32,000 bases of DNA from assembly GCF_000007985.2 (NCBI RefSeq), contig NC_002939.5, forward strand, positions 720,001 through 752,000. The letters are read 5' to 3'. The notes beneath the pieces are model-generated. The model made no database searches. It was not told the origin of the DNA and saw only the letters and a program-made list of their open reading frames with translations. Source of the stretch: Geobacter sulfurreducens PCA (GTDB taxonomy: Bacteria > Desulfobacterota > Desulfuromonadia > Geobacterales > Geobacteraceae). The translations under genes were made by a program, and so were the position numbers. This document shows positions 2,318 through 32,000 of this stretch, piece after piece; positions within the stretch are counted from its first letter, which is position 1, and the number at the start of each line of letters is the position of its first letter.

Positions 2318-2401
2318 TGAACGGCAATTCCTTTCACATGTATGTCTGTTTCGTCTTGGTCGGGGCAGGAGGAATGCCCCTCCTTCCCTCCAGGTGCCGG
2401 A

Positions 2402-4315: not shown

Positions 4316-4366
4316 GCGTAACCTCCCGGCCGAGGGCAAAGGGAATCCTTAGCCTTCGGCCTCAGT

Positions 4367-5353: not shown

Positions 5354-5371
5354 AGTGCCTTCAAAACTGAT

Positions 5372-5399
5372 GTAGGGGCGGTTGGTGAACCGCCCCTAC
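5372..5399 (-). promoter_or_regulatory. Intercistronic stem-loop between shc and hpnA (attenuator, partial terminator or mRNA-stabilising hairpin)
   Basis: Perfect 12-bp stem gtaggggcggtt / aaccgcccctac with a 4-nt loop. On the transcribed (minus) strand it is followed by ATCAGTTTTGAAGG, which contains the hpnA RBS. Confidence 0.45.
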
Positions 5400-5426
5400 G
5401 CGTAATCCACTTACTTGTCGAGGCTG

Positions 5427-7466
5427 TCAGAGCCCTTTGCCCGCAAGCGTCCGGTAGCGTCCCAGCGCCATGAGAGGGAAGCAGTTCCGGTAGATGTGGT
5501 ACTTGATCATGAAAAATTTCGGGAAGCCCGTGCCGGTGAAGGCGTCCTCGTCCCAGGTCCCGTCGGGCTTCTGGGTGTCGAGGAGATACTGGACTCCCCG
5601 CACCACGGACGAGCTTGCCACCTCGCCGGCGGCAAGGAGCGTGAGAAGGGCCCATCCTGTCTGAGACGCCGTGCTGGGCCCGACGCCGGCCAGCCGGGGA
5701 TCGGCGTACGACTCGCAACACTCGCCCCAGCCGCCGTCTTCGTTCTGGTGCTCCACGAGCCAGTCCACGGCCTTGCGGATCCAAGGCTGGCTCATGTCTT
5801 CGCCAAAGGCGGCAAGTCCGGACATGACCGACCAAGTGCCGTAGATGTAATTTACCCCCCACCGTCCCCACCAGGGACCGTCGGGTTCCTGGGTCTCACG
5901 GATGAACTTCAGCGCCCTGACCGCCGCTGGGTGGTCCTTGGGATAACCGTAGGTCCCCATGAGCTCCAGCATGCGGCCGGTCAGATCCGCCGTGGGGGGG
6001 TCGATGAGGGCCTCCAGGTCGGCGAAGGGGATCTTGTTGAGGATGTGCTTGGTGTTGTCCTTGTCAAAGGCCCCCCAGCCGCCGTTCTTGCTCTGCATGC
6101 CCAGGCACCAGGCGATGCCGCGGGTGATGGTGTCCTCTTTGGCCCGCTGGTCCTTAACCTTCACGTTTTTGATGGCCATCATGACGATACCCGAGTCGTC
6201 CACATCGGGATACCAGTCGTTCATGAACTCGAAGGCCCAGCCGCCGGGCTCCAGATCGGGACACTTGATCTTCCAGTCGCCCGGCCTGCGGACTTCACGG
6301 TCCAGAAGCCATTGGGCCGCCTTGGAGAGGGAAGGGTGATCGGTGGGGACTCCCGAGTCGACCATGGCCATGAGGCCCAGGGCCGTATCCCATACCGGCG
6401 AGACGCAGGACTGGAGGACCAGTTCGTCCTCACCCTCGATGCAGAAGTTGGCCAGGGCCTGCAGCCCCTTGGCCACGGCCGGATGGTCGTTGGCGTAACC
6501 GAGTACGTGGAGCGCCAGCACCGAGTTGAGCATGGCGGGCTGGATGCCCCCCCAGTCGCCGGTGGGCTCCTGGTGCTCGAGCACCCACTTCTCGGCGATG
6601 GCCATGGCTTTCTTCCTGCCCGGCCGGATGGGGCTCGCCTCGTACACCTTCAGTACGTGGTCGATGCCGATGAAGATGTTCTTCCAGGTGAGGATACCGT
6701 CTTCCTTGGTGAAGGTATAGTCCGTGGGCCGCGGGGGGCGCACGTAAAGCTCCTGCACCCGGGCCCAGGGGGGCAGCTTGCGCACCGGCCGCTCCGCCAT
6801 GACGATGGAGAGGGGGATGATCGTTGCCCGTGACCAGCTGGAAAACTCGTACATGTTGAAGGTGAAGCCGGCGGGGAGCAGCATCATCTCGATGGGCATG
6901 GAGGGAACCCCCAGCCAGGAGAACTCCCCGAACAGGGCAAGGAATATCTTGGTGAAGACCCGCGCCTTGAGGATGCCGCCGTGCTCTAGGATGAACGCCC
7001 GGGCCTTGCTCATGGACGGATGATCGGCCGGGTAGCCGGCGAGCTTCAGGGCGAAATAGGCCTCGATTGTGGTGGAAAGGTCGCCGGGACCGCCGTGCCA
7101 GATGGTCCAGTAGCCCTCCGTAGTCTGCTGGCGGAGAAGGTAATTGGCCATCTTCCGCTCTTTTTCACGGTTAACCAGCCCCATGAAGTGGAACAGCATG
7201 ATGTATTCGGCGGTTATAGTAGCGTTGGATTCCAGCTCGGCCCACCAGTAGCCGGCGGGGAGCTGCTCGCGGAAAAAGAATTCCTGGGTCCGCTCGATAG
7301 CTATATCGAGAGGGCTCGATACCGTCGATTCCTTTTTTTTCCAAATGGTGGCGGGGAGGTGGTGGATTTTCCCCGACTTGCGTGCGGCACTATTGTCAGC
7401 TGTTTCCCGTGCCGCATCATTGAACGAAGTGAGTGCGTGCGAAATGGGATTTTTTGAGATTTTCAT
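5427..7466 (-). CDS. shc: Squalene-hopene cyclase
   Basis: 679 aa from the ATG at 7466, with an AAGGAG RBS about 10 nt upstream. The 7532 start is an RBS-less extension. Catalytic DxDD motif (YPDVDDSG) and multiple QW-type repeats (e.g. QNEDGGWG, QSKNGGWGAF, QKPDGTW). Confidence 0.95.
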   Translation of the reverse strand: MKISKNPISHALTSFNDAARETADNSAARKSGKIHHLPATIWKKKESTVSSPLDIAIERTQEFFFREQLPAGYWWAELESNATITAEYIMLFHFMGLVNREKERKMANYLLRQQTTEGYWTIWHGGPGDLSTTIEAYFALKLAGYPADHPSMSKARAFILEHGGILKARVFTKIFLALFGEFSWLGVPSMPIEMMLLPAGFTFNMYEFSSWSRATIIPLSIVMAERPVRKLPPWARVQELYVRPPRPTDYTFTKEDGILTWKNIFIGIDHVLKVYEASPIRPGRKKAMAIAEKWVLEHQEPTGDWGGIQPAMLNSVLALHVLGYANDHPAVAKGLQALANFCIEGEDELVLQSCVSPVWDTALGLMAMVDSGVPTDHPSLSKAAQWLLDREVRRPGDWKIKCPDLEPGGWAFEFMNDWYPDVDDSGIVMMAIKNVKVKDQRAKEDTITRGIAWCLGMQSKNGGWGAFDKDNTKHILNKIPFADLEALIDPPTADLTGRMLELMGTYGYPKDHPAAVRALKFIRETQEPDGPWWGRWGVNYIYGTWSVMSGLAAFGEDMSQPWIRKAVDWLVEHQNEDGGWGECCESYADPRLAGVGPSTASQTGWALLTLLAAGEVASSSVVRGVQYLLDTQKPDGTWDEDAFTGTGFPKFFMIKYHIYRNCFPLMALGRYRTLAGKGL

Positions 7467-7694
7467 CTCGGCTCTGCTCCTTGGACAATGCATCTGAATA
7501 TCGGCCCGCCAACCGTGGGCAGCCAACAGCAATCGGTGTTTAATATCACAGATTTAACAAAAAAGACACCGTTTTCAATGGTTACTGACCTCCCTGCAAC
7601 GGCTGCCGCCGCTCCAGAGCTGCGGCACGAGACGATTGCACCCATCGGGGGGGCTATGGTATCGTGCCAAGGTTTTGACGTGTGGGGAGGATTC
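7467..7694. promoter_or_regulatory. Divergent shc / hpnN intergenic promoter region
   Basis: 228-bp non-coding gap between divergently oriented genes, with an AT-rich core (tttaatatcacagatttaacaaaaaagaca). No specific promoter boxes could be assigned with confidence. Confidence 0.4.
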
Positions 7695-10394
7695 ATGCAG
7701 CACACAAACGACAGAAAACGGTTTACGGGACTTTTCGGCGTCGTCGCCCGCCATCCGCGCCTCGTTCTCGGGGTGTCACTCCTGCTGGCAGTGCTTTCGG
7801 TGCTCTATACCTGGCAGGAGATGAGCTTCCTGACCGGCCGCGACGACCTGATGCCGAAAAATGCGCCGTTCCAGCAGGACTACCGGGCAAACCGGGCGGA
7901 ATTCGGCGACCGCGAAGAGATCGTCGTGGTGGTCGAGAGCGGCGATCAGGCCAGGGCATCGGGCTTTGCCGAACGCCTGGCCGCGGACCTCTCGGCCGAT
8001 CGGACGCGCTTTCGCGATGTCTTTCACCCCAACGGTCTTCCGTTTTTCCGGGAGCACGGCCTGTTGCTCCTTCCCCTGGACGAGCTGCGGTCGCTCCGAG
8101 AAAACCTTACCCTGGCCGAGCCGGTGCTGAAGGATCTCGCCTCAACGCCGTCGGTCCAGACCCTCTTTACCCATCTTACCACACGCATGGACGTTTACAC
8201 GGCGGCGGACGATTCTTCCGCCGGCCGCGACCGGGAACGGGCGGGACTCGTCTTTATGCTCGACAAGCTGGGCAGCGGCATTGCCTCCTTTGGCGGCGGC
8301 AAGGGCTCCTTTTCCCTTGAAGAGGTCTTCCTCGGTGGGGACTCGGCTCTGGCCCGGGCCCAGCGGATGCAGATAGTGACGGTCAGGCCGGTGCGCGACG
8401 CTGCCAGTTTTGTTCCGGCCGAGGAGGCGATCCGCGTGGTCCGCGCCCGGGTGGCTGAGCTCAAGGCACGTCCCGAGTTCGCCGGCGTGACCGTTGGGCT
8501 CACCGGCACGCCGGTTCTGGAGTACGAGGAGATGGCAACCAGCGAGCGGGACATCACCCTGGCAACGGGTCTCTCCCTGGCCCTGACCGTGGTCCTCCTG
8601 CTGGCGGCCTTCCGGGGGGTGCTGAACGTGGCGGCCGCCATGGTTTCCCTGGTGGTGGCCATCTGCGTCTCCTTCGGCGTGGCGACCCTGGTGGTCGGGC
8701 ACCTGAACATCCTTTCCATGGTCTTTGCGGTCATGCTGATCGGCATCGGCATCGAGTACGGCATCCAGGTGGTGCTCCGCTACCAGGAAGAGCTGGGGCT
8801 CGGGGCCGGTGAACTGGAGGCCGTGAACACGGGGCTCAGCCGGAACATGCTCGCCATTGTCATGGCCGCCGCCACCACGGCAGCGGCGTTTTTCACCTTC
8901 GCCTTCACCGATTTCCGGGGAATTGCCGAGCTGGGGATCATCGCCTCCCTCGGCATTGCCGTCTGCGTGGCCGTTACCTTCACCACCCTGCCCGCGGCCC
9001 TGGTCCTTCTCGTGCCGCTGCGCAAAACGAGGGAGACCGAGCGAGAAGCCCGGGCCGCCGGCCTGCTGAGGCGCTCACCCCGGTTCGCACGGCTGGAGGC
9101 GTTTCTCTTCGGCCATCCGCGGATCGTCGTGGGGATCACTGTTCTGCTCTGCCTCGCTTCGCTCTATCCGCTGGCCGATACCCGCTTCGACTACAATCTC
9201 CTTAACCTGCAGGCCCGGGGGCTCGAGTCGGTGGAGTATGCCTACAAGCTGATGAAAAGCAGGGAGAATGCGGGCTACTTCGCCGAAGTGACCGCTGCGA
9301 CGCCGGCCGAGGCCAGGATGCTCACGGCCCGCCTGGAGCAGTTGCCGACGGTCGACCACGTGGTGAGCCTCCTTACGTTCGTCCCCGACGATCAGGATGC
9401 CAAGCTCCGGGAACTGGCCGTGCTGCGGGATGAACTGGCCGATGTGAACCCGGTTCCCTACGAGGAGGATCTGCGGGTCATGGAACTCCCCACGGTGTTC
9501 GAGAATTTCCGTACCTCCGTGGAGCGGTTCAAGGTGCGGCTCGAGGCGGAGAAGAGGCCCGAGGCTGTTCGGGTGGGGGCCTTCCTCGCCACCCTTGATC
9601 GTTTCTTCGCTGACCTTGAGAAAGAAAAGGACCGCAATGCCCTCGGCATGCTCCGGGATTTCCAGGGGGGGATGCTCGCCTCGTTCCCGGAACAGATCCA
9701 GCAGCTCAAGGCAAGCCTCGCAGTCCGTCCGGTAACCGAGGCGGACGTGCCTCAGCAGCTCAGGGAGCGCTTCGTGGGGAAAAGCGGCACGTATCTGCTC
9801 CAGGTGGCGCCCCGGCAGGAGATTTTCGAGCGCGAGCCACTGAAGCGGTTCCTGGACCAGGTTCGCAGCGTGGCGCCCCGGGCCAACGGCGAGCCGGTTA
9901 TGGTCTACGAATCCATGACCATCATGCGCGACGCCTACTTGCGGGCGTTCGTCTACGCCTTCGGTGCAATCGTGCTGATCCTGTTCATTACCTTCCGCAG
10001 TCTAGTCTATACCCTGGTGGGGCTCGTGCCGCTGGTGGTGGGAATGCTCCTCATGGTGGGGGGGATGTGGCTGGCCGGCATTCCCTTCAACTCTGCCAAT
10101 ATCATCGTGCTGCCGCTTATCCTCGGCATTGCCGTGGATTCGGGGATCTACATCATCAACCGCTTCCGCCGGGAAGAGGGGGACGCTGCCTCGGTCATCA
10201 TGAGCAGCACCGGCCTGGGCGTCATCTACAATACACTCACCATCATGGCGAGCTTCGGCGCGCTCATGGTGGCCCGCCACCAAGGGGTCTTCAGCATCGG
10301 GGCGGTCATGAGCCTGGGCATGGTGGCCTGCCAGGCCGCGTTCATCCTGGTGCTGCCGGCGGTGTTGACGCTGGTGGGGAAGCGTAGTGACTAG
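7695..10394 (+). CDS. hpnN: RND/MMPL-family hopanoid transporter HpnN-like
   Basis: 899 aa from the ATG at 7695, with a GGAGG RBS 5 nt upstream. It has two hydrophobic transmembrane bundles, each after a large soluble domain, which is the MMPL/RND topology. It is divergent from shc, as expected for hpnN. Confidence 0.8.
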   Translation: MQHTNDRKRFTGLFGVVARHPRLVLGVSLLLAVLSVLYTWQEMSFLTGRDDLMPKNAPFQQDYRANRAEFGDREEIVVVVESGDQARASGFAERLAADLSADRTRFRDVFHPNGLPFFREHGLLLLPLDELRSLRENLTLAEPVLKDLASTPSVQTLFTHLTTRMDVYTAADDSSAGRDRERAGLVFMLDKLGSGIASFGGGKGSFSLEEVFLGGDSALARAQRMQIVTVRPVRDAASFVPAEEAIRVVRARVAELKARPEFAGVTVGLTGTPVLEYEEMATSERDITLATGLSLALTVVLLLAAFRGVLNVAAAMVSLVVAICVSFGVATLVVGHLNILSMVFAVMLIGIGIEYGIQVVLRYQEELGLGAGELEAVNTGLSRNMLAIVMAAATTAAAFFTFAFTDFRGIAELGIIASLGIAVCVAVTFTTLPAALVLLVPLRKTRETEREARAAGLLRRSPRFARLEAFLFGHPRIVVGITVLLCLASLYPLADTRFDYNLLNLQARGLESVEYAYKLMKSRENAGYFAEVTAATPAEARMLTARLEQLPTVDHVVSLLTFVPDDQDAKLRELAVLRDELADVNPVPYEEDLRVMELPTVFENFRTSVERFKVRLEAEKRPEAVRVGAFLATLDRFFADLEKEKDRNALGMLRDFQGGMLASFPEQIQQLKASLAVRPVTEADVPQQLRERFVGKSGTYLLQVAPRQEIFEREPLKRFLDQVRSVAPRANGEPVMVYESMTIMRDAYLRAFVYAFGAIVLILFITFRSLVYTLVGLVPLVVGMLLMVGGMWLAGIPFNSANIIVLPLILGIAVDSGIYIINRFRREEGDAASVIMSSTGLGVIYNTLTIMASFGALMVARHQGVFSIGAVMSLGMVACQAAFILVLPAVLTLVGKRSD

Positions 10395-23240: not shown

Positions 23241-23434
23241 GGCGTGCCTCCTGGTGCCCTGTCCCGGAGATAACGTCCCGGTTTCATAGTGTACTACGGG
23301 TTGCAGGTGGGGCAAGAAGGAGGCGTCGACGGGCGAAAAAAATCAGTGCCTCCACAAATGCGTTCAAGAAAATTTCCGTTATGCCGAAAAGAGTTACATG
23401 AGTTGAGACTATGTTATTGGCACTGGAGAACATC

Positions 23435-24718
23435 ATGAAATCATTGCAGGCGGGGTGTGTATCTGCGGTACTGGCGGCCATCTGTATTGCGACGCCGGCC
23501 GGGGCCTTCCATTCGGGCGGTGCGGCCCAGTGCGAGGGGTGCCACACCATGCACAATACAAGCGAAGGCGCCGCCATGACCGGGTCGAGCGCCCGCTTTC
23601 AGAGCGGCCCGTTTCTTCTCAGAGGATCGGACCAGAGCTCAGCCTGCCTCAACTGCCATCAGCAGGCCGGAGACACCGGTCCCACCTCGTATCATGTTTC
23701 CACTGCCGAAAATGACATGCCCGTGGGGTCGCCGCCGTTGCAGCTCACCCCCGGCGGCGATTTCGGCTGGCTGAAAAAATCCTATTCCTGGGCTCCCGCG
23801 CCGGGCTCAGCCTCGGTGGAGATTCGCGGCGAACAGCATGGTCACAACATTGTCGCCGCCGACTTTAACTATGTGGCAGACACCACAAATATCAACGCTC
23901 CGGGAAGCTCCACTCCCTATCCGTCCGACAGCCTCCACTGTTCCAGCTGCCACGATCCGCACGGCGCGTACCGCATTGTGGAGAACGGGGTTCAGGCCAC
24001 GAGCGGCAAGCCGATCAGGGGGGCCGGCTCCTACGGCTCCCTCCCCGACGCAGGTTCCGCCGTGGGTACGTATCGACTCCTGGCGGGGGTCGGCTACAAA
24101 CCCAAGTCCCTGGCCGGCGGCCCGGCCTTTACCCACGCAGCGCCTTTTGCGGTGGCGCCCGTCGTCTACAACCGGTCCGAAGAATCCAGCGACACCCGCG
24201 TTTCCTACGGCAAGGGGACTTCTGCCTGGTGCACCAACTGCCATGCCCTCATGCATTCTGCCCCCGGTTCTTCGCTTCACCCGGCCGACAAACAGCTCGG
24301 CGACGTGGCCCAGACCTACAATGCCTACCGCAAGACGGGCAGCCTGGACGGCACTGTGGCTACGGCCTATCTGTCGCTTGTCCCGTTTGAGCTGGGGGAT
24401 GTGACCGACCTGACGGCCCTCAAGGATGCAATCGCCACCACCGCCGGTCCGGCCGCAACGGACAAGGTGTCGTGTCTTTCCTGCCACCGTGCCCACGCCT
24501 CCGGCTTCAGCCATATGACGCGGTTCGCCATCGACTCCAACCACATTACCGTGGCCGATGCCTCCGGCAATGCCATCTGGCCCGATCCGGTCATGAACCC
24601 CTCCCAGGCCCAGGGCCGGACCGTGGCCGAGACCCGGCAGGCATACTACGGGAGGCATCCGCAGGCGTTTTCTCCCTACCAGCGCGTGCTCTGCAACAAG
24701 TGCCACGCCAGGGACTGA
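23435..24718 (+). CDS. omcJ: OmcS-family hexahaem c-type cytochrome (OmcS paralogue, probably OmcJ)
   Basis: 427 aa from the ATG at 23435, with a GGAG RBS 6 nt upstream. Signal peptide ...ATPAGA|FHSGG. Six CXXCH motifs (CEGCH, CLNCH, CSSCH, CTNCH, CLSCH, CNKCH). It is collinear with OmcS as I remember it (FHSGG..CEGCHTMHN, CLNCHQ.AGDTGP.SYH.ST, TPGGDFGW.KK, GHNIVA.D.NYVADTT, LHCSSCHDPHG, CLSCHRAHASGF, PYQR.LCNKCHA.D). The gene symbol rests on my recollection of the G. sulfurreducens locus. Confidence 0.9.
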   Translation: MKSLQAGCVSAVLAAICIATPAGAFHSGGAAQCEGCHTMHNTSEGAAMTGSSARFQSGPFLLRGSDQSSACLNCHQQAGDTGPTSYHVSTAENDMPVGSPPLQLTPGGDFGWLKKSYSWAPAPGSASVEIRGEQHGHNIVAADFNYVADTTNINAPGSSTPYPSDSLHCSSCHDPHGAYRIVENGVQATSGKPIRGAGSYGSLPDAGSAVGTYRLLAGVGYKPKSLAGGPAFTHAAPFAVAPVVYNRSEESSDTRVSYGKGTSAWCTNCHALMHSAPGSSLHPADKQLGDVAQTYNAYRKTGSLDGTVATAYLSLVPFELGDVTDLTALKDAIATTAGPAATDKVSCLSCHRAHASGFSHMTRFAIDSNHITVADASGNAIWPDPVMNPSQAQGRTVAETRQAYYGRHPQAFSPYQRVLCNKCHARD

Positions 24719-24767: not shown

Positions 24768-24797
24768 GGGCCGGCCAGCAATGGTCGGCCCTTTTTT
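24768..24797 (+). terminator. Rho-independent terminator after the OmcS-family gene
   Basis: GC-rich stem gggccggcc / ggtcggccc (one G-U pair), a 6-nt loop, then TTTTTT (24792-24797), about 50 nt after the stop codon. Confidence 0.8.
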
Positions 24798-25199
24798 GCC
24801 GCTGATGCACGTCCGGAAGTGCTCGCCCCCCCTCGCTCAACCACCTTCCCGAAACCTCCGCTCCTTCGTACCCGCTGAAAACACAAGGAAATAAACAAAA
24901 GCAGTGCAATTAAGGGGAGATGGATATTAAACTGCATCACCTGCGGTTACTTTGTATTTATTAAATTTTTGTCACATATTGGTATTCAATTTGCTGCTTT
25001 ATGAATAGCTTTGATGGGTACGTGGGGTGTTGGCAATGGGTGCATAGTGAAACTGATTGATTTCATTGTGAACTGTTGTTTTCGGAAGGCTGTTGCCAAT
25101 CGGTATTATGTCGTGATTTTGACTTTTGGTGCGTCGAGTGTCGGTTATTTAACGTAATACTCACATGGTATCACTGTGGTTGTGGGTAGTGAGGTTACT
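24798..25199 (+). promoter_or_regulatory. AT-rich promoter/leader region of the giant cytochrome gene
   Basis: A non-coding gap of about 400 bp. By my count 24941-25000 is 17/60 G+C, in a window that is otherwise GC-rich. It contains a spaced repeat TGTTGGCAATGG (25028-25039) / TGTTGCCAATCGG (25091-25103). A GAGG RBS at 25191-25194 precedes the GTG at 25200. Confidence 0.5.
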
Positions 25200-28100
25200 G
25201 TGAATACGCGATCTTGGAAAATGCTGATGATGTGGTGCTCCGTGATGTTTGTGGGTATTTCGCCGGTCCTGACCGGCGTGGACGAAGTCCGGGCAGCCAT
25301 CCAGTGCTATCAGTGCCACGGAACCGCGGCAACCAGTGACTATCGCCCGGAAGACAGCGCGTTCCGCGCTATCTCCACCGGAGGATTCAAGGGAAATCAC
25401 CGGACTCACATGGCAAGCAGCGCCACGGCAAACAGCTGCACGATCTGCCACGGCACGAGCGGCTACCAGGCAAGCCATCGCGACGGTACCATTGCCATAG
25501 CTTCCAACATTAATGCGTCACCGGCCGTCGGAACCTACAGTCGCGGCACGTCCTTCGCCCAGAGCGCCTCGGTGGTGCCGGGTACCTGCAGCAACGTCAA
25601 CTGCCACTTTGAAACCGTGACGCCGGCCTGGGGCAGCACGCCCCTTGCCTCCACCGCCGATTGCGGTACGTGCCATGGCAGCGCGCCGGCCACCGGCAGC
25701 CATCCCGTCGGGGGGAGCAAGCACGGCGCCTATTACGGGACCGGAACCTCTTCGTGTGGCACATGCCATCCCGACCATGGGGCCAAGGAGGGTACAGCCC
25801 GTTTTGCCCATGCCACCAGTGTCGGTCGGGACTTGCAGGTCAGCTTCGCTGCCGCGCCGAACAGCGGCAGCGGCAGCTATTCCGGGCCGGTAAACGATTA
25901 CCTGCCGAGTCAGAGCAATGTCTTCGGCACCTGTTCCGGCACATACTGTCACAGCCCCGGCACCAAGTCGTCGGCATTCGACGCCCCGAACCAGTCCGCA
26001 GCCTGGGGGGGGAGCCTGGCCTGCAACGGATGCCACAAGTCCGACCGTTCCTCGGGCACGGCCATGACCAGCGGCAGCCACCGCGCCCATGTGGACGGCT
26101 TTGGGCTGGGCTATGCCACGGTCAGGTGCGTCAGGTGTCACGGTGCCACCGTAACCTCGGCCATGGCCATCGGCACCTACGGCAATCATGTTAACAAGCT
26201 GGTCAACGTGGCGTTCGACAGCACCACCACGGCGAAGAACGGCACGTACGGCGGGGTGTCGTCTCCCATGACCAAAGCGCCGGGGAGTGCCTACGGCAGC
26301 TGCACCAACGTCTACTGCCACTCCAGCGGCCAGGGGAACAGCGGCAGCTGGCCGCCGACCTATACGACTCCCACCTGGGGCTCCGCCGCAACGGGGCAGT
26401 GCGGCACCTGCCACGGCATCAACGGCGATACCCACAGCGGTTACGGCACACCGACCATCATGACTTCGGGCAGCCACACCAGGCACCTGGCCTATTCCTT
26501 CGGTATTACCAGCGACGAAACCCGCTGCGCGACCTGCCACGCCACCACCCTGACCGGATTCACCCCCACGGTCTGCAGCTCCTCGGTCTGTCATAACCAG
26601 ATCAGCCAGAAGCACGCCAATTATGAAGTCAATGTGGGATTCCCCGACTACTACGGCGCCACCGCTGCCTACGGCGGCACACCGAAGCCGGGTGACGGCT
26701 ACGGCTCGTGCACGAATATCTACTGTCACAGCGATGGCCGGGACACCCTCCACTACGCCCAGACCCCCCTGACTTGGGGCGGCGCGTCCCTGGGCTGCAC
26801 CGGCTGCCACGGGAGTGCCACGGCGCCTCAAAACGGCAGCGGCGGCACCACCCTGTCGGGCAAGCATGCCGTCCACGTGAATAATGCGGCGATCTTCGGC
26901 ACCAATAACAGCCTGGGGTGCGTCCAGTGCCACAACAGAACCGTCAGCGACAACAGTACGCTCCTTGGGACCACCGGCACCCAGTACCATGTCAACAAGA
27001 CCCGCGACTACTATGGGACCATGGCCGGCAGCTACAACTCCGGCACCAAGGTCTGCAGTAACGTGTACTGCCACAGTTCGGGCCAGGCCACACCGGTCTA
27101 CCGGACCGTGGCCGCCTGGACCAGCGCCACCGGCTACGGCTGCAACAGTTGCCACGGGGCCGACAGCGCCTTCACGGCAGCGGCCGGCGAGCCCAACTAT
27201 GCCAACGGCGGCGCCGGAACGGCCACGGCCAACAGTCACCAGCGCCACGTAGCAAGCCTCGGCATTACTGCCACCACCGGCTGCGCCGCCTGCCACTGCC
27301 GGACCGTTGACGCAACCGTTACCAACAAGCTGCGTAACTACTCGACCCTGCACCTGAACCAGGCGCGCAACGTGGCCATGAAGGCCATCAACGGCAAGTC
27401 CGGAACCTACGACAGCAATGCCAAGACGTGTTCGGCCACCTACTGTCACGGCACCTCACCGTCACCGGCCTGGGGCGGATCTACCGCCTGCAACTCGTGT
27501 CACAGCGCCCGGGCCACCGATGCCCACTGGGCAGCCAACTCCGCCCATAAGATCCACTGGGAGGGATCCGTCCTGCCCTCTTCGTATGCCATGACCCCGG
27601 GCAATGGCACCGGCGATGCGGCCACCTACCGGTTTGCCTGCTCGTCCTGCCATTCCCCCTCCGGAGGCTCAGCCCATGCCGGCGGCGCCTTGGCGGCAAG
27701 CCAGGCGGCCCAGGTCTATTTCGGTTACTCCGCGGCAGGCGTGCGCGGCAGCTACACGGGAACCGGCACGGCCTACAGCAATGACAACGGATTCAACTGG
27801 ACCGCCGGATCCTCCGGCTGTACCGCCACGTACTGTCACTCCGGCGGCGCCGGTCAGGCCGGTCGTTCGGCCGTTGCCTGGAGCACCAGCGCCAAAACCT
27901 CCTACAACTGCAACCTGTGCCACGGTAATGCCGCTGCACCCAACAACGACTGGCGGCGTGGCGCCCCCCTCTATGCCTCCGGCTCCATCACCTACAAGGG
28001 CCAGGCGAAGGGGAACGCCCATGGTGCTCACATAAGCGCACAGACCAGCCTCTCTGCCGTCTACATGCAGTGCGCCCACTGTCACGGAGCCACGACCGCC

Positions 28101-30926
28101 ACAAGCACCGCCATCAGCGACAAGCGCAAGCACCTGAACAAATCCTACGATGTCTCCGCCGGCGGCACCTTCCGGGACGGGGACAACACCGCCAACTCGA
28201 CGGCGGTCACTATCGCTTACAGCTACAACGTTGCAGGGAGCAGCTGCTCCAACGTCTCCTGCCATCCGGTGGGCCTCGACGTGACCACCACGCCGTCCAC
28301 GCCGCTGACGCGGTCCACCAGCACGGCTGCGTGGAACAGCTCCTACAAATGCACCGACTGCCACCGCATCCCGATGCAGGATACCGATACCTACCATCAT
28401 GCCATGTATGACTACGGCCGGACGTATCCGACCACAATCCCCGACGGCAGCGCCACCAGCGGCACCAATTACACCAGCCGGACCTGCACCATGTGCCATG
28501 TGGACCACACGATCTTCAGCCCCGATCTCAACGTCAACAGTGCCGGCCGGTCCTACAACCTGAGGACCGCCATCGGCTCAACGCCCACCACGACGGCAAA
28601 CTTCACCAATTCCGACTACAGCGCATCCGGCGGCGGTATCTGCATCAGCTGCCATTCCACGGAGCGAACCAAATCCACGGTACGGCGCAAACAGGAAACC
28701 AACGCCACCAAAACACCGCCTGTCACCTTGGCCAACTACTCCGGTTCCGCCCATCAGTACAATGTGCCGGCCAGCTTCTTCAGCGATGGCAGCCGGTTCC
28801 AGGGCAACTGCTCCAAGTGTCACAACGCCCTGGTCAACGAGACGTCGGTATTCATGAGCTATACCGGCTCCGGCGACTCGTTCGGCAATCACAACAGCGG
28901 CATCAGGCGGCTTCAGGGCTCCCTCGGCGCAACAGGCGGCGAGGTGGCTGAAGAGCAGATCTGCTACCGTTGCCATAGCCTGTCCAGCGATGCCGACCCG
29001 GGGGGCGGCCCGCCCAAGGCGGTCGCCAACAAGGATTACTACGGGGTGGCACCCATGAGCCTGGCGTCCCAGGACATCTTTGCTGCCAACCGTGACTTCC
29101 GGGCCGCGAACCCGACGTACAGCCTCACCAACAAGCTGTATTTCAAGCCGGCCGCGGCCGAGACACCTGCTGAGGCCATGCCGAATCAGCACAACACCGG
29201 CGATTCCTTCAGCGGCGGCACGTGGGTCGGCCGCGTCATGTCCCCCTGGGAGACCACGGTTACCTATGAAACAAAGAGCCAGGGCACCAACCTGGAGGGC
29301 ACCAGCTACTGGCGCATGGTCACCTTTACCTCGCCCGCGGTCTACAGCACCACTACCGTCCCCGCCGGCAACTGGATCATCAACCTCTACTGCCGCGAGT
29401 CGTCCACCGCCCAGAACGCCAGGGTCAGGTACATGGTCTACAAGTGGAACAACCCCGCCGATACCATGGGAGCCACCATCATCGCCAAGGGGACCTATGC
29501 CACCGAGCTTTCCACTGCGGGAGCCCCCGGTACCGTACGCCAGATACCGGTGAGCGTGGGTACCCTCACCCTCAACGCGGGGGAGAAGATCGTGGTCGAT
29601 CTTTCGCTGGAGACGACCACCACGAGCACCAACGGCTATACCGCGTCATTTTACTTCGGCAGCCGCGCACCCAGCGAGCTGACGCTCCCCGGCAGCGTGG
29701 CCTGGACCTACGCCGACCCGGGCGCCCCAGGTTACGGCCACGCAACCCAGCACTATTCAGGGATCCATCTCCCCTCGCGTCAGAATGAAACCCTGGCCTA
29801 TATCGCCCAAAACAGGCACATCGAGTGCGTGGACTGCCACAACCCCCATGCGACCCGCAACGGGCTCCACGGCGACTACGGAATCGCCACCGGCGGAAGT
29901 TCCACCACCCTGGTCAACAGCAACAAGAACTGGGTGCCCAACCAGTGGGTCGGCGATTATATCAACATCATTTCAGGCACCGGCGCCGGCCAGACGGCCA
30001 CCATCAGCGGCAATAACGCGACCACCGTTACCGTGGCCGGGTGGACTGCGCCGGCCAGCGGCAGCGTTTACCGGATCATCGCCAACAATAATGCGGTGTC
30101 CCGGAGCCAGCGCGGCGTGTCCGGCGCCAGTGTAAGCTATTCCGGGGCCTGGACCAACGGCACCTATACCATGGTAAGCGAGGCCGCCTACGAGTACCAG
30201 ATCTGCTTCAAGTGCCATGCCGCCACCAATCCGACCACCAATACGCTACGCTACTGGAACGTAACCTCGCCGTCGTTGGGGGCGGCCCGTTGGACCAACA
30301 TCGGCCTGGAGTTCAACCCCAACAATGCCTCATACCACCCGGTGATCCAGCCATTGCCATCCACCGGCAACCGGCGGCTGCAGGCGACCGCCCTGACCGG
30401 CGGCTGGCAGCCGGGCGAGGTGATGACCTGCTCCGACTGCCACGGCAGGGATACCAGCACCTCCGCCACGGCCCAGGGCCCCCATGGTTCGACCGTCAAA
30501 TGGCTGCTGACGGGCATGTATCAGAACTGGCCCTTCACTTCAGCGGCGGCCAACGGTACCTCATCCGGCGGGACCCTGCTGACCGGAACGGGCACCGCGA
30601 CGCCTCCGGCCAACAACTTCTGCTTCAACTGCCACACCTGGGCCGCCGGCGGCAACGGTCACGTCAAGTCGTCGGGCGGGCACAGCAGGCCCTGCGTCAA
30701 CTGCCACATTCGGGTTCCCCACGGGGGCAAGGTGCCGCGCCTCCTGACCGGGGCCAATGCCCCATCCCGTTACAAGCCCGACGGCAACGGCGGCGCCTTT
30801 TCCGGTTCCTACCTGACCAGCGCCATCCTGCCGGCCAGCGGCTATATGGGGGCCAACAATGTCAGCTGTTCCTCCATCTGTGGGGCAAGGCACACGGACA
30901 ACAGCATAAAGGCCTATTCCTGGTGA
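25200..30926 (+). CDS. Giant secreted multihaem c-type cytochrome (26 CXXCH + 9 CX4CH motifs)
   Basis: 1,908 aa from the GTG at 25200, with a GAGG RBS 5 nt upstream. The listed 25176 start adds 8 aa. Signal peptide: NTRSWKMLMMWCSVMFVGISPVLTGVDEVRA|A. Motifs were counted by hand in the translation. The repeated CxxxxCH...W...CXXCH unit is the Geobacter-type domain (TIGR01904, as I recall). Confidence 0.9.
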   Translation: MNTRSWKMLMMWCSVMFVGISPVLTGVDEVRAAIQCYQCHGTAATSDYRPEDSAFRAISTGGFKGNHRTHMASSATANSCTICHGTSGYQASHRDGTIAIASNINASPAVGTYSRGTSFAQSASVVPGTCSNVNCHFETVTPAWGSTPLASTADCGTCHGSAPATGSHPVGGSKHGAYYGTGTSSCGTCHPDHGAKEGTARFAHATSVGRDLQVSFAAAPNSGSGSYSGPVNDYLPSQSNVFGTCSGTYCHSPGTKSSAFDAPNQSAAWGGSLACNGCHKSDRSSGTAMTSGSHRAHVDGFGLGYATVRCVRCHGATVTSAMAIGTYGNHVNKLVNVAFDSTTTAKNGTYGGVSSPMTKAPGSAYGSCTNVYCHSSGQGNSGSWPPTYTTPTWGSAATGQCGTCHGINGDTHSGYGTPTIMTSGSHTRHLAYSFGITSDETRCATCHATTLTGFTPTVCSSSVCHNQISQKHANYEVNVGFPDYYGATAAYGGTPKPGDGYGSCTNIYCHSDGRDTLHYAQTPLTWGGASLGCTGCHGSATAPQNGSGGTTLSGKHAVHVNNAAIFGTNNSLGCVQCHNRTVSDNSTLLGTTGTQYHVNKTRDYYGTMAGSYNSGTKVCSNVYCHSSGQATPVYRTVAAWTSATGYGCNSCHGADSAFTAAAGEPNYANGGAGTATANSHQRHVASLGITATTGCAACHCRTVDATVTNKLRNYSTLHLNQARNVAMKAINGKSGTYDSNAKTCSATYCHGTSPSPAWGGSTACNSCHSARATDAHWAANSAHKIHWEGSVLPSSYAMTPGNGTGDAATYRFACSSCHSPSGGSAHAGGALAASQAAQVYFGYSAAGVRGSYTGTGTAYSNDNGFNWTAGSSGCTATYCHSGGAGQAGRSAVAWSTSAKTSYNCNLCHGNAAAPNNDWRRGAPLYASGSITYKGQAKGNAHGAHISAQTSLSAVYMQCAHCHGATTATSTAISDKRKHLNKSYDVSAGGTFRDGDNTANSTAVTIAYSYNVAGSSCSNVSCHPVGLDVTTTPSTPLTRSTSTAAWNSSYKCTDCHRIPMQDTDTYHHAMYDYGRTYPTTIPDGSATSGTNYTSRTCTMCHVDHTIFSPDLNVNSAGRSYNLRTAIGSTPTTTANFTNSDYSASGGGICISCHSTERTKSTVRRKQETNATKTPPVTLANYSGSAHQYNVPASFFSDGSRFQGNCSKCHNALVNETSVFMSYTGSGDSFGNHNSGIRRLQGSLGATGGEVAEEQICYRCHSLSSDADPGGGPPKAVANKDYYGVAPMSLASQDIFAANRDFRAANPTYSLTNKLYFKPAAAETPAEAMPNQHNTGDSFSGGTWVGRVMSPWETTVTYETKSQGTNLEGTSYWRMVTFTSPAVYSTTTVPAGNWIINLYCRESSTAQNARVRYMVYKWNNPADTMGATIIAKGTYATELSTAGAPGTVRQIPVSVGTLTLNAGEKIVVDLSLETTTTSTNGYTASFYFGSRAPSELTLPGSVAWTYADPGAPGYGHATQHYSGIHLPSRQNETLAYIAQNRHIECVDCHNPHATRNGLHGDYGIATGGSSTTLVNSNKNWVPNQWVGDYINIISGTGAGQTATISGNNATTVTVAGWTAPASGSVYRIIANNNAVSRSQRGVSGASVSYSGAWTNGTYTMVSEAAYEYQICFKCHAATNPTTNTLRYWNVTSPSLGAARWTNIGLEFNPNNASYHPVIQPLPSTGNRRLQATALTGGWQPGEVMTCSDCHGRDTSTSATAQGPHGSTVKWLLTGMYQNWPFTSAAANGTSSGGTLLTGTGTATPPANNFCFNCHTWAAGGNGHVKSSGGHSRPCVNCHIRVPHGGKVPRLLTGANAPSRYKPDGNGGAFSGSYLTSAILPASGYMGANNVSCSSICGARHTDNSIKAYSW
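25587..28364 (+). repeat. Eight tandem, diverged protein-level modules (CX4CH - W - CXXCH - CXXCH) inside the giant cytochrome
   Basis: The first Cys of the CX4CH motifs falls at ORF residues 138, 253, 376, 512, 627, 752, 882 and 1024, a period of 115-142 aa. Each motif (C[ST]x[VT]xCH) is followed 13-28 aa later by W-[GTSN] and a CxxCH. In seven of the eight modules a second CXXCH follows the first by 21-50 aa (the eighth has only CTDCH). One extra CX4CH (CSSSVCH) is at 467. Confidence 0.8.
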
Positions 30927-31540
30927 TGGGGTACGGGTACGGTGGATATCCCGACCGGGCGATGCCCGGGGGAGGCGGGAGGAGTGCCGGCACCTCCGGG
31001 GGGGTGCGTGTCGGCATGATCCTGCTGGCGGTTGTGCTGGCAGTTTGCTCTGCCTGCGCCGGGGGCGATACCGGCGAGGTCGAGGCGACCATTCGCCGCT
31101 ACAATGACCTGCTGGTCCAGGGCTACCGGGCCCAGAACATGAATCCCCTCGTGGAAGTCACCACCCATGAGCACGCGCTGAAACTCTATCACCACATGGC
31201 CGCCCTCGGCGAGGGCCAGCTGCGGATGGAGTCGAAGCTCAAGAGGATCAGGTTCCTGAATATCGAACGGCGCGGCAATTCCGAGGCGACGGTGGAAACG
31301 GAGGAAACCTGGGACTTCACCCATTACCGGATGGCCACTAACGAAAAATACGCCGAGGAAAAAGACTTCATTTACCGGATGGGGTATGTCCTGAACAAAG
31401 AAAACGGCCGCTGGCTCATCACCGGGGTGAACACCATCAGCGGCACCAGCACCAATAACGTGGTCCCCTGGCCGGTGCTGGACCGCAAGGGGAGGGTCGT
31501 CAATCAGGCGCCCGGCGGCGCCCAGGGACGGCACCCCTGA
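30926..31540 (+). CDS. Membrane-anchored or lipoprotein-like protein of unknown function
   Basis: Same frame as listed ORF 30212..31540. A candidate ATG at 30926 overlaps the cytochrome stop (TGATG). Alternative starts are ATG 30962, GTG 31004 and ATG 31016. One hydrophobic segment (MILLAVVLAVCSACAGG), then a soluble domain of about 160 aa with alternating alpha/beta character (NTF2-like guess only). Confidence 0.6.
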   Translation: MGYGYGGYPDRAMPGGGGRSAGTSGGVRVGMILLAVVLAVCSACAGGDTGEVEATIRRYNDLLVQGYRAQNMNPLVEVTTHEHALKLYHHMAALGEGQLRMESKLKRIRFLNIERRGNSEATVETEETWDFTHYRMATNEKYAEEKDFIYRMGYVLNKENGRWLITGVNTISGTSTNNVVPWPVLDRKGRVVNQAPGGAQGRHP

Positions 31541-31542
31541 CC

Positions 31543-32000
31543 ATGGAGCGGATCAAGCGGTTTTTCCTGGCACGCGGCACGGTCATCAGTTTCATTCTCC
31601 TGGCACTCTGTGCCATCACCCTGGCAGCGTTCATTCCCCAGCGCTTCCTGACCTCGCCCGAAGAGATGCTGGCGTGGCAGTCGGCCTACCCGCTGTTCGC
31701 CCGCTGGAGTAGCCTGCTGGGCCTCCATCACATCTATACACATCCCGGCTTTGCCCTTATCCTTGCCGGGGGGACGATTTCCCTTGCCTTTTCGACCAGG
31801 AATCAGGCGCTTACCGCGTGGCAGCGCACCGTGCGCCCCGCCGGCGGTACAGCCGGGGACCGGCGCTTTTCCGTCGCCCGAGCGCCGGCGGAGGTTTCCC
31901 GCCTCCTGATGACCAACGGGTTCATCGGTCAGGGCATATTCGATGGGGAAATCCGGCTGGTGCGCCACCCCTGGGGGTACTGGGGCAATACTCTGCTCCA
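31543..32000 (+). CDS. resB: ResB/Ccs1 (CcsB)-type System II cytochrome c biogenesis protein, N-terminal part (runs off the window)
   Basis: Not in the ORF track because no stop is reached. My translation from the ATG at 31543 gives MERIKRFFLARGTVISFILLALCAITLAAFIPQRF...LLGLHHIYTHPGFALILAGGTISLAFS...LVRHPWGYWGNTLL. The TM1-IPQ motif, the LGL..IY..P.F TM2 motif and the HPWGYWG motif match my memory of the ResB family. It starts 2 nt after the upstream stop. Confidence 0.8.
   Translation, partial: MERIKRFFLARGTVISFILLALCAITLAAFIPQRFLTSPEEMLAWQSAYPLFARWSSLLGLHHIYTHPGFALILAGGTISLAFSTRNQALTAWQRTVRPAGGTAGDRRFSVARAPAEVSRLLMTNGFIGQGIFDGEIRLVRHPWGYWGNTLL

What the first reader, a model, noticed from the sequence alone, without database searches (positions are those of the whole stretch)
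25200..30926. 1,908-aa cytochrome with 35 candidate haem sites built from eight CX4CH...W...CXXCH modules
By hand count there are 26 CXXCH and 9 CXXXXCH motifs, roughly one per 55 aa. Residues 138-1063 form eight diverged tandem modules. The C-terminal 850 aa switch to sparse CXXCH motifs separated by long haem-free domains. The composition is very rich in G/S/T/A/N and poor in charged residues, as in secreted surface proteins. CX4CH binds haem in Desulfovibrio cytochrome c3, so these sites are plausibly real. I recall a G. sulfurreducens cytochrome annotated with 35 haem-binding sites next to omcJ, but I know of no structure or function for it. Oddities include CAACHC (an extra Cys after the His) and a C-terminal CSSICGARH.
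Basis: partly seen in the sequence, partly recalled or inferred. Interest (0 to 1): 0.7.

Follow-up and report, generated by a model that had tools for sequence, protein, structure and literature searches.

The report
Known 35-haem Geobacter cytochrome GSU0702
This gene is GSU0702 of Geobacter sulfurreducens PCA, an already annotated 35-haem cytochrome of about 216 kDa. Its sequence is real and strongly conserved, but its job in moving electrons out of the cell has never been tested.

Summary
ORF 25176/25200..30926 (+) carries 26 CXXCH and 9 CX4CH motifs, against 0.13 of each expected by chance. NCBIfam TIGR01904 matches it in eight stretches.

The protein is residue-for-residue identical to GSU0702 of G. 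sulfurreducens PCA, whose KN400 orthologue is annotated 'cytochrome c, 35 heme-binding sites'. The upstream gene is OmcJ (GSU0701), an OmcS-family hexahaem.

- Each module holds three haem motifs, not two, and three conserved extra histidines. All haems could therefore be six-coordinate electron-transfer haems.
- The C-terminal third is an eight-haem unit with two inserted haem-free beta domains. One is a jelly-roll also found in secreted surface proteins.
- The conserved partners are not omcJ. They are a small lipoprotein and a ResB/ResC haem-attachment pair immediately downstream.
- The terminal CSSICGARH is conserved. Distant homologues have a canonical haem motif at that position.

Most likely function: an exported single-chain haem wire or electron store with a binding head. 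This is inferred, not shown. Published work reports the transcript and lists the protein in proteomic studies, but I found no deletion mutant.

The parts
25200..25295 (+). Probable Sec signal peptide (residues 1-32, MNTRSWKMLMMWCSVMFVGISPVLTGVDEVRA|AIQC). The start codon is uncertain: 25176, 25200 or 25221.
   Evidence: A GAGG lies 6 nt upstream of GTG 25200. The sequence has a basic n-region, a hydrophobic core and a V-R-A cleavage-type site. The consensus of 58 homologues begins its conserved part at AAxQCYxCHG. There is no canonical lipobox, so the database label 'lipoprotein' is doubtful (inference).
25296..25520 (+). N-terminal dihaem segment (CXXCH at residues 36 and 80; conserved His 67, 70, 93).
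25521..28589 (+). Eight tandem trihaem modules (residues 108-1130). Each has the pattern G.C.N.YCHS ... WG..C..CHG ... SGSH..H ... C..CH ... HVNK. There are 24 haem motifs here, plus an extra CX4CH at residue 459.
   Evidence: TIGR01904 matches in 8 stretches. The self-alignment shows mean pairwise identity of 28%. Motif Cys, His and Trp are invariant, and each module has three conserved non-motif His.
28590..29084 (+). C-terminal unit, part A (residues 1131-1295): 3 CXXCH, conserved His 1185 and 1231, and Met 1286.
   Evidence: BLASTP block 1050-1295 is shared with many cytochromes of about 1100 aa. M1286 is 99% conserved.
29085..29732 (+). Haem-free jelly-roll beta-sandwich insertion (residues 1296-1511).
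   Evidence: No Pfam match. It is absent or duplicated in homologues. The AF2 model has pLDDT about 90 here. Foldseek hits are jelly-roll proteins or proteins that contain a jelly-roll domain: CocE, TNF, CBM22 and viral capsids. Only 77 cluster representatives carry it among 1.84 billion; 31 are not cytochromes, and of the nine scanned three carry T9SS sorting tails, with PKD, Ig-like or MG2 domains in others.
29733..29870 (+). Part C (residues 1512-1557): CXXCH at 1543 with conserved His 1514, 1523, 1540, 1550.
29871..30164 (+). Small haem-free beta domain (residues 1558-1655).
   Evidence: Beta strands in the AF2 model. It is missing in P0009, P0014 and P0015, and is 46-58% identical to segments of non-cytochrome proteins.
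30165..30923 (+). Part E (residues 1656-1908): 4 CXXCH, with a Paired_CXXCH-type tail ending in W.
   Evidence: PF09699 E 8e-9. It is homologous to CXXCH cytochromes of about 550 aa in other phyla.
30867..30893 (+). Conserved terminal C-X3-C-X3-H (CSSICGARH, residues 1890-1898). It may be a degenerate or non-canonical 36th haem site.
23411..24718 (+). omcJ (GSU0701), an OmcS-family hexahaem cytochrome. It is a neighbour, not a conserved partner.
   Evidence: E 1e-141 and 60% identity over the full length to OmcS (PDB 6EF8/6NEF). Its last 427 aa are identical to AAR34031.1.
24769..24792 (+). Intrinsic-terminator-like hairpin plus T-run after omcJ. It is followed by an AT-rich stretch of about 290 bp in front of the 35-haem gene.
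31016..31540 (+). Small NTF2-like lipoprotein (GSU0703 by position), a conserved companion. An alternative ATG at 30926 overlaps the TGA stop of the cytochrome gene.
   Evidence: The lipobox Cys is invariant in 5 homologues. It is 65% and 52% identical to genes in the same cluster in L065 and L064. There is a weak Pfam NTF2_YvbJ match, below its cutoff.
31543..32000 (+). 5' part of a ResB-like cytochrome c biogenesis gene (GSU0704 by position). It runs off the end of the window.
   Evidence: 56% identity over 152 aa to the Pfam-ResB gene of L065 and 38% to that of L064. Aklujkar 2009 names GSU0704-0705 as a ResB/ResC pair.

Best explanation
The ORF is GSU0702 of Geobacter sulfurreducens PCA. 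It is a Sec-exported c-type cytochrome of about 195 kDa (apo), or about 216 kDa with 35 haems.

The first 1130 residues are a dihaem lead-in followed by eight tandem trihaem TIGR01904 modules. The 27 haem motifs there are matched one-for-one by 27 conserved extra histidines. These haems are therefore most likely all bis-His, low-spin and closely chained. That makes a single-polypeptide electron conduit, which would also store dozens of electrons.

The last ~780 residues are a separate eight-haem unit that also occurs on its own in other bacteria. Two haem-free beta domains have been inserted into it. I infer that these form a binding or anchoring head on the outer surface or in the matrix.

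The gene has its own upstream region. It is followed directly by a small lipoprotein and a ResB/ResC (System II) haem-attachment pair, which probably mature it.

Shown here: identity, motif content and conservation, domain layout, and the gene cluster. Inferred: haem occupancy, bis-His ligation, wire geometry, extracellular location, and the binding role of the beta domains.
For: Identity: 1916/1916 residues match AAR34032.1.

Family: TIGR01904 in 8 stretches at 215.9 bits, and PF09698.

Motifs: 26 + 9 against 0.13 expected for each. They are conserved in 58 homologues, with three conserved non-motif His per module. All 35 motifs are kept across strains and in the G. metallireducens/G. grbiciae orthologue.

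Module number varies from 4 to 14 CX4CH on the same C-terminal unit, as expected if conduit length is the variable trait.

C-terminal model: pLDDT 77.9 with a confident beta sandwich and jelly-roll Foldseek hits. The insert is shared with T9SS/PKD/Ig surface proteins.

Cluster: cytochrome + lipoprotein + ResB + CcsA recurs in four other loci, L064, L065, L067 and L068, of which L064 and L067 are the same orthologous cluster in two species. The window itself shows the lipoprotein and the 5' end of the ResB-like gene before it ends. In 20 of 20 metagenome loci of at least 8 kb found through the lipoprotein, ResB and CcsA lie on the same strand.

Literature:
- The transcript is higher on low-potential anodes, the protein is predicted extracellular, and the function is unknown.
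- The protein is listed in two proteomic studies.
- An AF2 model of a 27-haem family member has been published as a wire of about 350 A with Fe-Fe distances below 15 A (PMC11492766).
- Aklujkar 2009 proposed that ResB/ResC pairs are dedicated to nearby cytochromes.
Against: - No haem occupancy, ligand, location or phenotype data exist for this protein in anything I could read.
- My own AF2 model of residues 1-1067 failed (pLDDT 53, pTM 0.36). The wire geometry therefore rests on a published model of a homologue.
- No porin or secretion gene lies next to it, and how a 216-kDa holo-cytochrome would cross the outer membrane is unknown.
- The hematite-type [ST]P[ST] motif is not enriched (8 against 4.7 +/- 2.1).
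- The beta domains have no detected ligand.
- Two homologue loci (L066, L069) lack the ResB/CcsA genes within the 8-10 kb of flank held on each side.
Confidence: 0.6

Rival explanations
1. It stays in the periplasm. It would act there as a periplasm-spanning conduit or as an electron capacitor that buffers respiration when no acceptor is available, rather than as an outer-surface wire.
For: No porin-cytochrome or secretion genes are adjacent. The cluster contains only inner-membrane maturation genes and a lipoprotein. Soares 2024 notes that family members are longer than the periplasm is wide and could link the two membranes. Thirty-five six-coordinate haems would suit charge storage.
Against: Two papers quote a PSORTb extracellular prediction. 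The jelly-roll insert is otherwise found in T9SS-sorted, PKD/Ig-bearing secreted proteins. Neighbouring genes of homologues encode beta-helix, Big_5 and BNR surface-type cytochrome fusions.
Confidence: 0.25
2. It is a functional partner of the OmcS-like filament protein OmcJ encoded just upstream, for example a base, charger or anchor for an OmcJ nanowire.
For: omcJ lies 460 bp upstream on the same strand and is 60% identical to OmcS.
Against: omcJ ends with its own terminator-like hairpin, and the 35-haem gene has a separate AT-rich upstream region. Of 63 OmcS-family loci from other genomes, none has a close relative of this protein nearby; there are only four matches at about 25% identity to the module region and none to the C-terminal unit. 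G. metallireducens has the orthologue but, according to Aklujkar 2009, no omcS/omcT homologue.
Confidence: 0.05
3. It is a catalytic multihaem reductase with one or more open-coordination haems, not a pure electron carrier.
For: The C-terminal unit gives weak Pfam matches to NrfB-like and MtrC-like haem domains. One Met (M1286) is 99% conserved.
Against: Every haem motif can be paired with a conserved candidate sixth ligand. There is no CXXCK or other catalytic-site motif and no similarity to NrfA, HAO or MccA above noise.
Confidence: 0.05

Closest known systems
GSU0702 of Geobacter sulfurreducens PCA (AAR34032.1, UniProt Q74FA7); KN400 orthologue ADI83542.2, annotated 'cytochrome c, 35 heme-binding sites'
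   Same: Identical sequence, 1916/1916. The upstream neighbour is also the same (OmcJ/GSU0701).
   Different: Nothing; it is this protein. The database label 'lipoprotein' is not supported by a canonical lipobox (inference).
Other TIGR01904 / PF09698 giant cytochromes of Geobacteraceae. One is the 27-haem G. metallireducens protein (my hit P0081; the attribution rests on organism and motif count) that Soares et al. 2024 modelled as a wire of about 350 A. Soares also names OmcA (GSU2884), OmcG and OmcH as predicted long wires; their membership of this family is my recollection and was not tested here.
   Same: Same repeated CX4CH...W...CXXCH domain, 40-50% identity over the module region, and frequent ResB/CcsA neighbours.
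   Different: Most of these proteins match only the N-terminal ~55% of GSU0702. The C-terminal eight-haem unit with its jelly-roll and small beta inserts is much rarer: 75 proteins in the word-indexed search, and 77 cluster representatives for the jelly-roll alone.
GSU1996 dodecahaem cytochrome, a chain of four c7-type domains (from my own knowledge: Pokkuluri et al. 2011), and cytochromes c7/c3
   Same: The concept is the same: tandem trihaem units in one polypeptide forming a linear haem chain. An HxxH pair sits before a CXXCH, and a CX4CH is used as in cytochrome c3.
   Different: No detectable homology. hhalign of the module profile against PpcA and D. vulgaris c3 gives 2-3% probability. 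The Pfam Cytochrome_C7 score is a sum of stretches none of which is significant alone. Modules are 115-140 aa rather than about 70.
Polymerising cytochrome nanowires OmcS, OmcE and OmcZ
   Same: Geobacter multihaem proteins thought to carry electrons beyond the cell. An OmcS paralogue is the next gene.
   Different: Those are 4-8-haem subunits that polymerise. This is one chain with 35 sites and has no sequence match to any of them.
Dedicated System II haem lyases of Wolinella succinogenes: NrfI for CXXCK and CcsA1 for CX15CH (from my own knowledge)
   Same: An extra ResB/CcsA pair is encoded beside a cytochrome that carries non-standard haem motifs.
   Different: Specificity is untested here. 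In several related loci the cytochrome directly upstream has no CX4CH at all, so the link may be to very large cytochromes rather than to the motif.

Membership tests
TIGR01904 / PF09698 CxxxxCH/CxxCH domain c-type cytochrome | Match to the family HMM above the curated cutoff | tested here: met
   TIGR01904 at 215.9 bits against a cutoff of 27, in 8 stretches. PF09698 at 85.4 bits against 21.7, in 5 stretches.
TIGR01904 / PF09698 CxxxxCH/CxxCH domain c-type cytochrome | Paired CX4CH and CXXCH motifs with an intervening Trp, conserved among homologues | tested here: met
   C, C, H, W, C, C, H are invariant across the eight internal repeats. They are invariant or more than 90% conserved across 58 homologues.
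c-type (covalent haem) cytochrome | Export signal, plus a cytochrome c maturation system in the genome | tested here: met
   Signal-like N-terminus. A ResB-like gene starts 617 bp downstream. The ResB/ResC pair GSU0704-0705 is described in PMC2700814.
c-type (covalent haem) cytochrome | Haem actually thioether-linked at each motif, including CX4CH | not testable with these tools
   Needs haem staining or mass spectrometry. Two proteomic papers only list the protein.
Cytochrome c7 / c3 (class III) | Sequence or profile homology to c7 or c3 | tested here: not met
The profile search of the PDB gives only motif-spacing matches.
Cytochrome c7 / c3 (class III) | c3-type fold and haem-core geometry | tested here: inconclusive
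   The AF2 model of residues 1-1067 has pLDDT 53 and is unusable.
OmcS-type polymerising nanowire cytochrome | Homology to OmcS, OmcE or OmcZ subunits | tested here: not met
   No PDB sequence match at E <= 0.1. By contrast, the upstream gene matches OmcS at 1e-141.
Porin-cytochrome outer-membrane conduit (Mtr / Pcc / Ext type) | Adjacent gene for an outer-membrane beta-barrel porin and a periplasmic partner cytochrome | tested here: not met
   Flanking genes are a response regulator-phosphatase, omcJ, a small lipoprotein and ResB. No porin-like ORF lies within the window downstream of 21 kb.

The most novel reading that the evidence does not exclude
The three genes downstream (the GSU0703 lipoprotein and the GSU0704/0705 ResB/ResC pair) may form a specialised haem-attachment machine for giant cytochromes. 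The conserved terminal C-X3-C-X3-H may be a 36th haem site of a type not described before, with the histidine displaced from the second cysteine. Distant homologues carry a canonical CXXCH, CX3CH or CX4CH at the same place.
Probability: 0.12. Interest if true: 0.6.

Novelty: already known. Interest (0 to 1): 0.3.

Why it matters
Geobacter's giant cytochromes are among the largest haem proteins encoded in any genome, and none has a solved structure or a proven role. GSU0702 is reported to be up-regulated on low-potential electrodes, so it is a reasonable candidate for a long fixed-length electron conduit or an electron store.

The practical value of this check is that it gives experimenters a precise map:
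- which histidines to mutate;
- where the haem-free binding domains sit;
- that the genes to co-express or delete are the downstream lipoprotein and ResB/ResC pair, not omcJ.

It does not change what is known about the existence or family of the protein.

Tried and rejected
1. AF2 of the module region (residues 1-1067, 58-row alignment) gave pLDDT 53 and pTM 0.36, which is unusable.
2. Searches for a solved relative found nothing. The whole protein had no PDB hit. The module profile found only CXXCH-spacing matches to reaction-centre cytochromes.
3. I tested whether the modules are c7/c3 domains in a rotated register. hhalign gave 2-3% probability, so I rejected this.
4. I tested whether omcJ and the 35-haem gene form a conserved pair. 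Sixty-three OmcS-family loci showed no such neighbour, so I rejected this.
5. I looked for a riboswitch or other known RNA upstream. There was no Rfam hit anywhere in the window.
6. I tested whether the extra ResB/CcsA pair is specific for CX4CH. This was weakened: all 20 long loci have ResB and CcsA, but only 12 have an ORF with at least 3 CX4CH, and some have CX4CH-free giants directly upstream.
7. The hematite-binding motif is not enriched above shuffles.
8. Foldseek of the C-terminal model found matches only for the beta sandwich. The haem-binding parts gave no hits, as expected for models without haem.
9. The genome-contig scan returned no G. sulfurreducens locus, although OmcS should match the patterns used. 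Organism identity was obtained instead by exact-sequence look-up.
Full report
**Observation**

The window has one uninterrupted ORF from 25176 to 30926 on the + strand.

- There are exactly 26 CXXCH and 9 CX4CH motifs, with 75 Cys and 82 His. T, S, G and A make up 46% of residues.
- In 2000 residue shuffles each motif occurs 0.13 +/- 0.35 times, with a maximum of 2. The counts are far beyond chance.
- Seventy of the 75 cysteines lie in motifs. The other five are C13 (signal peptide), C700, C1398, C1890 and C1894.

**Identity**

- An exact-sequence look-up puts the protein in a 90% cluster with G. sulfurreducens and G. anodireducens entries.
- The 1916-aa translation is identical at all 1916 positions to AAR34032.1 / UniProt Q74FA7, which is GSU0702 of G. 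sulfurreducens PCA.
- The KN400 orthologue is 1868/1916 identical and is annotated 'cytochrome c, 35 heme-binding sites'.
- The upstream ORF (23411..24718) has its last 427 aa identical to AAR34031.1, which is GSU0701 / OmcJ. It matches OmcS (PDB 6EF8/6NEF) over its full length at E 1e-141 and 60% identity.
- The rest of the window holds MCP, an HpnH-like radical SAM enzyme, DXP synthase, an epimerase, squalene-hopene cyclase, an MMPL transporter, and several signalling genes.

**Family and repeat anatomy**

NCBIfam TIGR01904 ('CxxxxCH/CxxCH domain c-type cytochrome') matches in 8 stretches at 215.9 bits against a cutoff of 27. Pfam PF09698 matches in 5 stretches.

Self-alignment shows eight units of 115-140 aa spanning about 108-1130, with mean pairwise identity of 28%. 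Each unit carries three haem motifs. The consensus is G.C.N.YCHS, about 20 residues, WG..C..CHG, about 15 residues, SGSH..H, about 12 residues, C..CH, about 15 residues, HVNK.

The ninth CX4CH, at residue 459, is an extra site in module 3. Its first Cys is kept in 40 of 58 homologues, and its second Cys and His in 49.

In a 58-protein alignment the other motif Cys and His are invariant or more than 90% conserved. Each module also has exactly three conserved non-motif histidines, for example H294, H297, H330 and H426, H429, H472. Together with H67, H70 and H93 this gives 27 conserved histidines for the 27 N-terminal motifs.

I read these as the sixth ligands. If so, all module haems would be six-coordinate bis-His. 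This is inference from conservation, not a measurement.

**No solved relative, and not c7/c3 by sequence**

- The whole protein has no PDB sequence match.
- A profile of the modules finds only motif-spacing matches.
- The order HxxH-CXXCH-H-CX4CH-CXXCH resembles cytochrome c3, so I rotated the repeat register and compared the profile by hhalign. Probabilities were 1.8% and 3.4%.
- My AF2 run on residues 1-1067 failed (pLDDT 53), so I cannot judge the fold.
- A published survey modelled a 27-haem G. metallireducens family member, which by organism and motif count I take to be my hit P0081. The model is a wire of about 350 A with Fe-Fe distances below 15 A (PMC11492766). I rely on that for geometry.

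**C-terminal third**

BLASTP against homologues shows this region is modular.

| Part | Residues | Content |
|---|---|---|
| A | about 1050-1295 | five CXXCH (the first two belong to module 8); shared with many cytochromes of about 1100 aa |
| B | 1296-1511 | no haem motif; absent in some homologues, duplicated in others |
| C | 1512-1557 | one CXXCH |
| D | 1558-1655 | no haem motif; absent in some homologues; 46-58% identical to pieces of non-cytochrome proteins |
| E | 1656-1908 | four CXXCH of Paired_CXXCH type; related to cytochromes of about 550 aa in Bacteroidota and Ignavibacteria |

Further results for this region:
- AF2 of residues 1040-1908 gave pLDDT 77.9 and pTM 0.75. Part B is a confident all-beta sandwich and part D is a small beta domain.
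- Foldseek against the PDB returned proteins that are, or that contain, jelly-roll domains: CocE, TNF, CBM22 and viral capsids.
- An exhaustive HMMER search with part B found only 77 cluster representatives among 1.84 billion. Forty-six are cytochromes and 31 are not.
- Of nine non-cytochrome carriers scanned, three have T9SS sorting tails. PKD, Ig-like or MG2 domains occur in five of the nine, and three have no Pfam match.
- This points to an extracellular binding-type module, but no ligand is known.
- The C-terminal unit has at least ten conserved non-motif His and a 99%-conserved Met (M1286) for its eight motifs.

**The two 'oddities'**

The extra Cys in CAACHC is not conserved; it is Glu in 30 of 58 homologues.

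The terminal CSSICGARH is conserved: Cys 56/69, Cys 64/69, His 47/69. I examined 132 homologues that share the last C..CH..PHG unit. Ninety-four have a Cys-Cys-His group in the tail. In 37 the His follows the second Cys directly (CX3CH, CXXCH, CX4CH, CXCH and others). In 57 it is displaced by 1-4 residues, and CX3CX3H is the commonest form, with 24 cases.

This could be a decayed haem site kept as a disulfide, or a non-canonical 36th site. I cannot tell which.

**Genomic context**

omcJ ends with a terminator-like hairpin and T-run at 24769-24792. An AT-rich stretch of about 290 bp precedes the 35-haem gene. GAGG lies 6 nt before GTG 25200. No Rfam family matches anywhere in the window.

The omcJ adjacency is not conserved:
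- Sixty-three OmcS-family loci from other genomes have no close relative of this protein nearby.
- G. metallireducens has an orthologue but, according to Aklujkar 2009, no omcS/omcT homologue.

What is conserved lies downstream:
- The TGA stop overlaps an ATG.
- A 174-aa NTF2-like lipoprotein (31016-31540) follows, then a ResB-like gene from 31543 that runs off the window.
- The same set (giant TIGR01904 cytochrome, small lipoprotein, ResB, CcsA) occurs in G. grbiciae (L064), G. metallireducens (L067), a Geobacteraceae MAG (L065, where I did not check for CcsA) and Geobacter sp. DSM 9736 (L068). L064 and L067 are the same orthologous cluster in two species.
- The 1848-aa orthologue in L064 and L067 also has 9 + 26 motifs.
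- It is absent, within the flank held, from L066 and L069.
- None of the 63 OmcS-centred loci (1.0 Mb in total) has a ResB hit.
- A metagenome scan with the lipoprotein family gave 63 loci. Of the 20 that are at least 8 kb long, all 20 have ResB and CcsA on the same strand. Fifteen have an ORF with at least 10 haem motifs, and 12 have one with at least 3 CX4CH.
- Some loci have CX4CH-free giant cytochromes directly upstream. The link therefore looks to be with very large cytochromes rather than with the motif itself.

Aklujkar et al. 2009 already proposed that the four ResB/ResC pairs, including GSU0704-0705, serve nearby cytochromes.

**Literature on function**

- GSU0702 ('35 hemes') is reported up at -0.17 V with acetate and at -0.25 V versus +0.2 V. 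[quoted passage not shown]
- It is up-regulated in gsu1771 and csrA mutant electrode biofilms.
- It is listed among the proteins in two proteomic studies.
- It carries 139 SNPs and 42 amino-acid changes between PCA and the KN400/LT strains. Even so, all 35 motifs are intact in every full-length strain version I counted.
- I found no deletion mutant and no biochemical work.

**Verdict**

The observation and the interpretation both stand. The object is an already annotated and repeatedly mentioned protein of a named family, so the finding is not new.

The best-supported mechanism is an exported single-chain haem conduit or electron store, with 27 chained bis-His haems. It ends in an eight-haem unit carrying two surface-type beta domains, and it is matured by its own downstream System II genes.

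Identity, motifs, conservation, domain layout and cluster are shown. Haem occupancy, ligation, geometry, location and the role of the beta domains are inferred.

Module number varies from 4 to 14 CX4CH among homologues with the same C-terminal unit. This fits a protein whose length is the adaptive variable.

Noticed in passing
window 31016-31540 and 31543-32000; loci L064, L065, L067, L068, L070-L132: A small NTF2-like lipoprotein with an invariant lipobox Cys accompanies a ResB/CcsA pair, usually beside giant multihaem cytochromes. ResB and CcsA are on the same strand in 20 of 20 metagenome loci of at least 8 kb. The lipoprotein has no significant Pfam or NCBIfam match and may be an undescribed accessory of System II cytochrome maturation.
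   Followed up: partly
window 30867-30893 (residues 1890-1898): The terminal C-X3-C-X3-H is conserved. Of 94 homologues with a Cys-Cys-His group in the tail, 37 have a canonical haem motif there and 57 have the His displaced by 1-4 residues.
   Followed up: partly
window 23411-24718: OmcJ (GSU0701) is a full-length OmcS homologue at 60% identity, with all six CXXCH. It has its own terminator-like hairpin at 24769-24792. The adjacency to the 35-haem gene is not conserved in other genomes.
   Followed up: yes
window 29871-30164 (residues 1558-1655): A small haem-free beta domain is 46-58% identical to segments of non-cytochrome proteins, some with Kelch motifs or a Phage_BR0599 match. It is missing from some close homologues. 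It looks like a recently shuffled mobile domain.
   Followed up: partly
window 1319-10394: A hopanoid-type cluster: a radical SAM/DUF3463 (HpnH-like) gene, DXP synthase, an NAD-dependent epimerase, squalene-hopene cyclase and an MMPL (HpnN-like) transporter.
   Followed up: no
window 24880-25170: An unusually AT-rich stretch of about 290 bp lies in front of the 35-haem gene, in a region that is otherwise 60-68% G+C. No sigma-70 consensus match and no Rfam family were found there. A TGGCA-N-TGCA element at about 25033-25047 has the wrong spacing for a sigma-54 promoter.
   Followed up: partly
window 26000-30000: Within the gene, GC skew is strongly negative (-0.11 to -0.19) and AT skew strongly positive (+0.13 to +0.21), unlike the rest of the window. 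My guess, not tested, is that this reflects the Thr/Ser/Ala/Asn-rich coding composition.
   Followed up: no
Genome-contig scan: The scan with OmcS-derived patterns returned 63 loci from other taxa, including Anaeromyxobacter, Nitrospirota and Acidobacteriota MAGs. It returned none from G. sulfurreducens, although OmcS itself fits the patterns. The source genome seems to be missing or masked in that collection.
   Followed up: no
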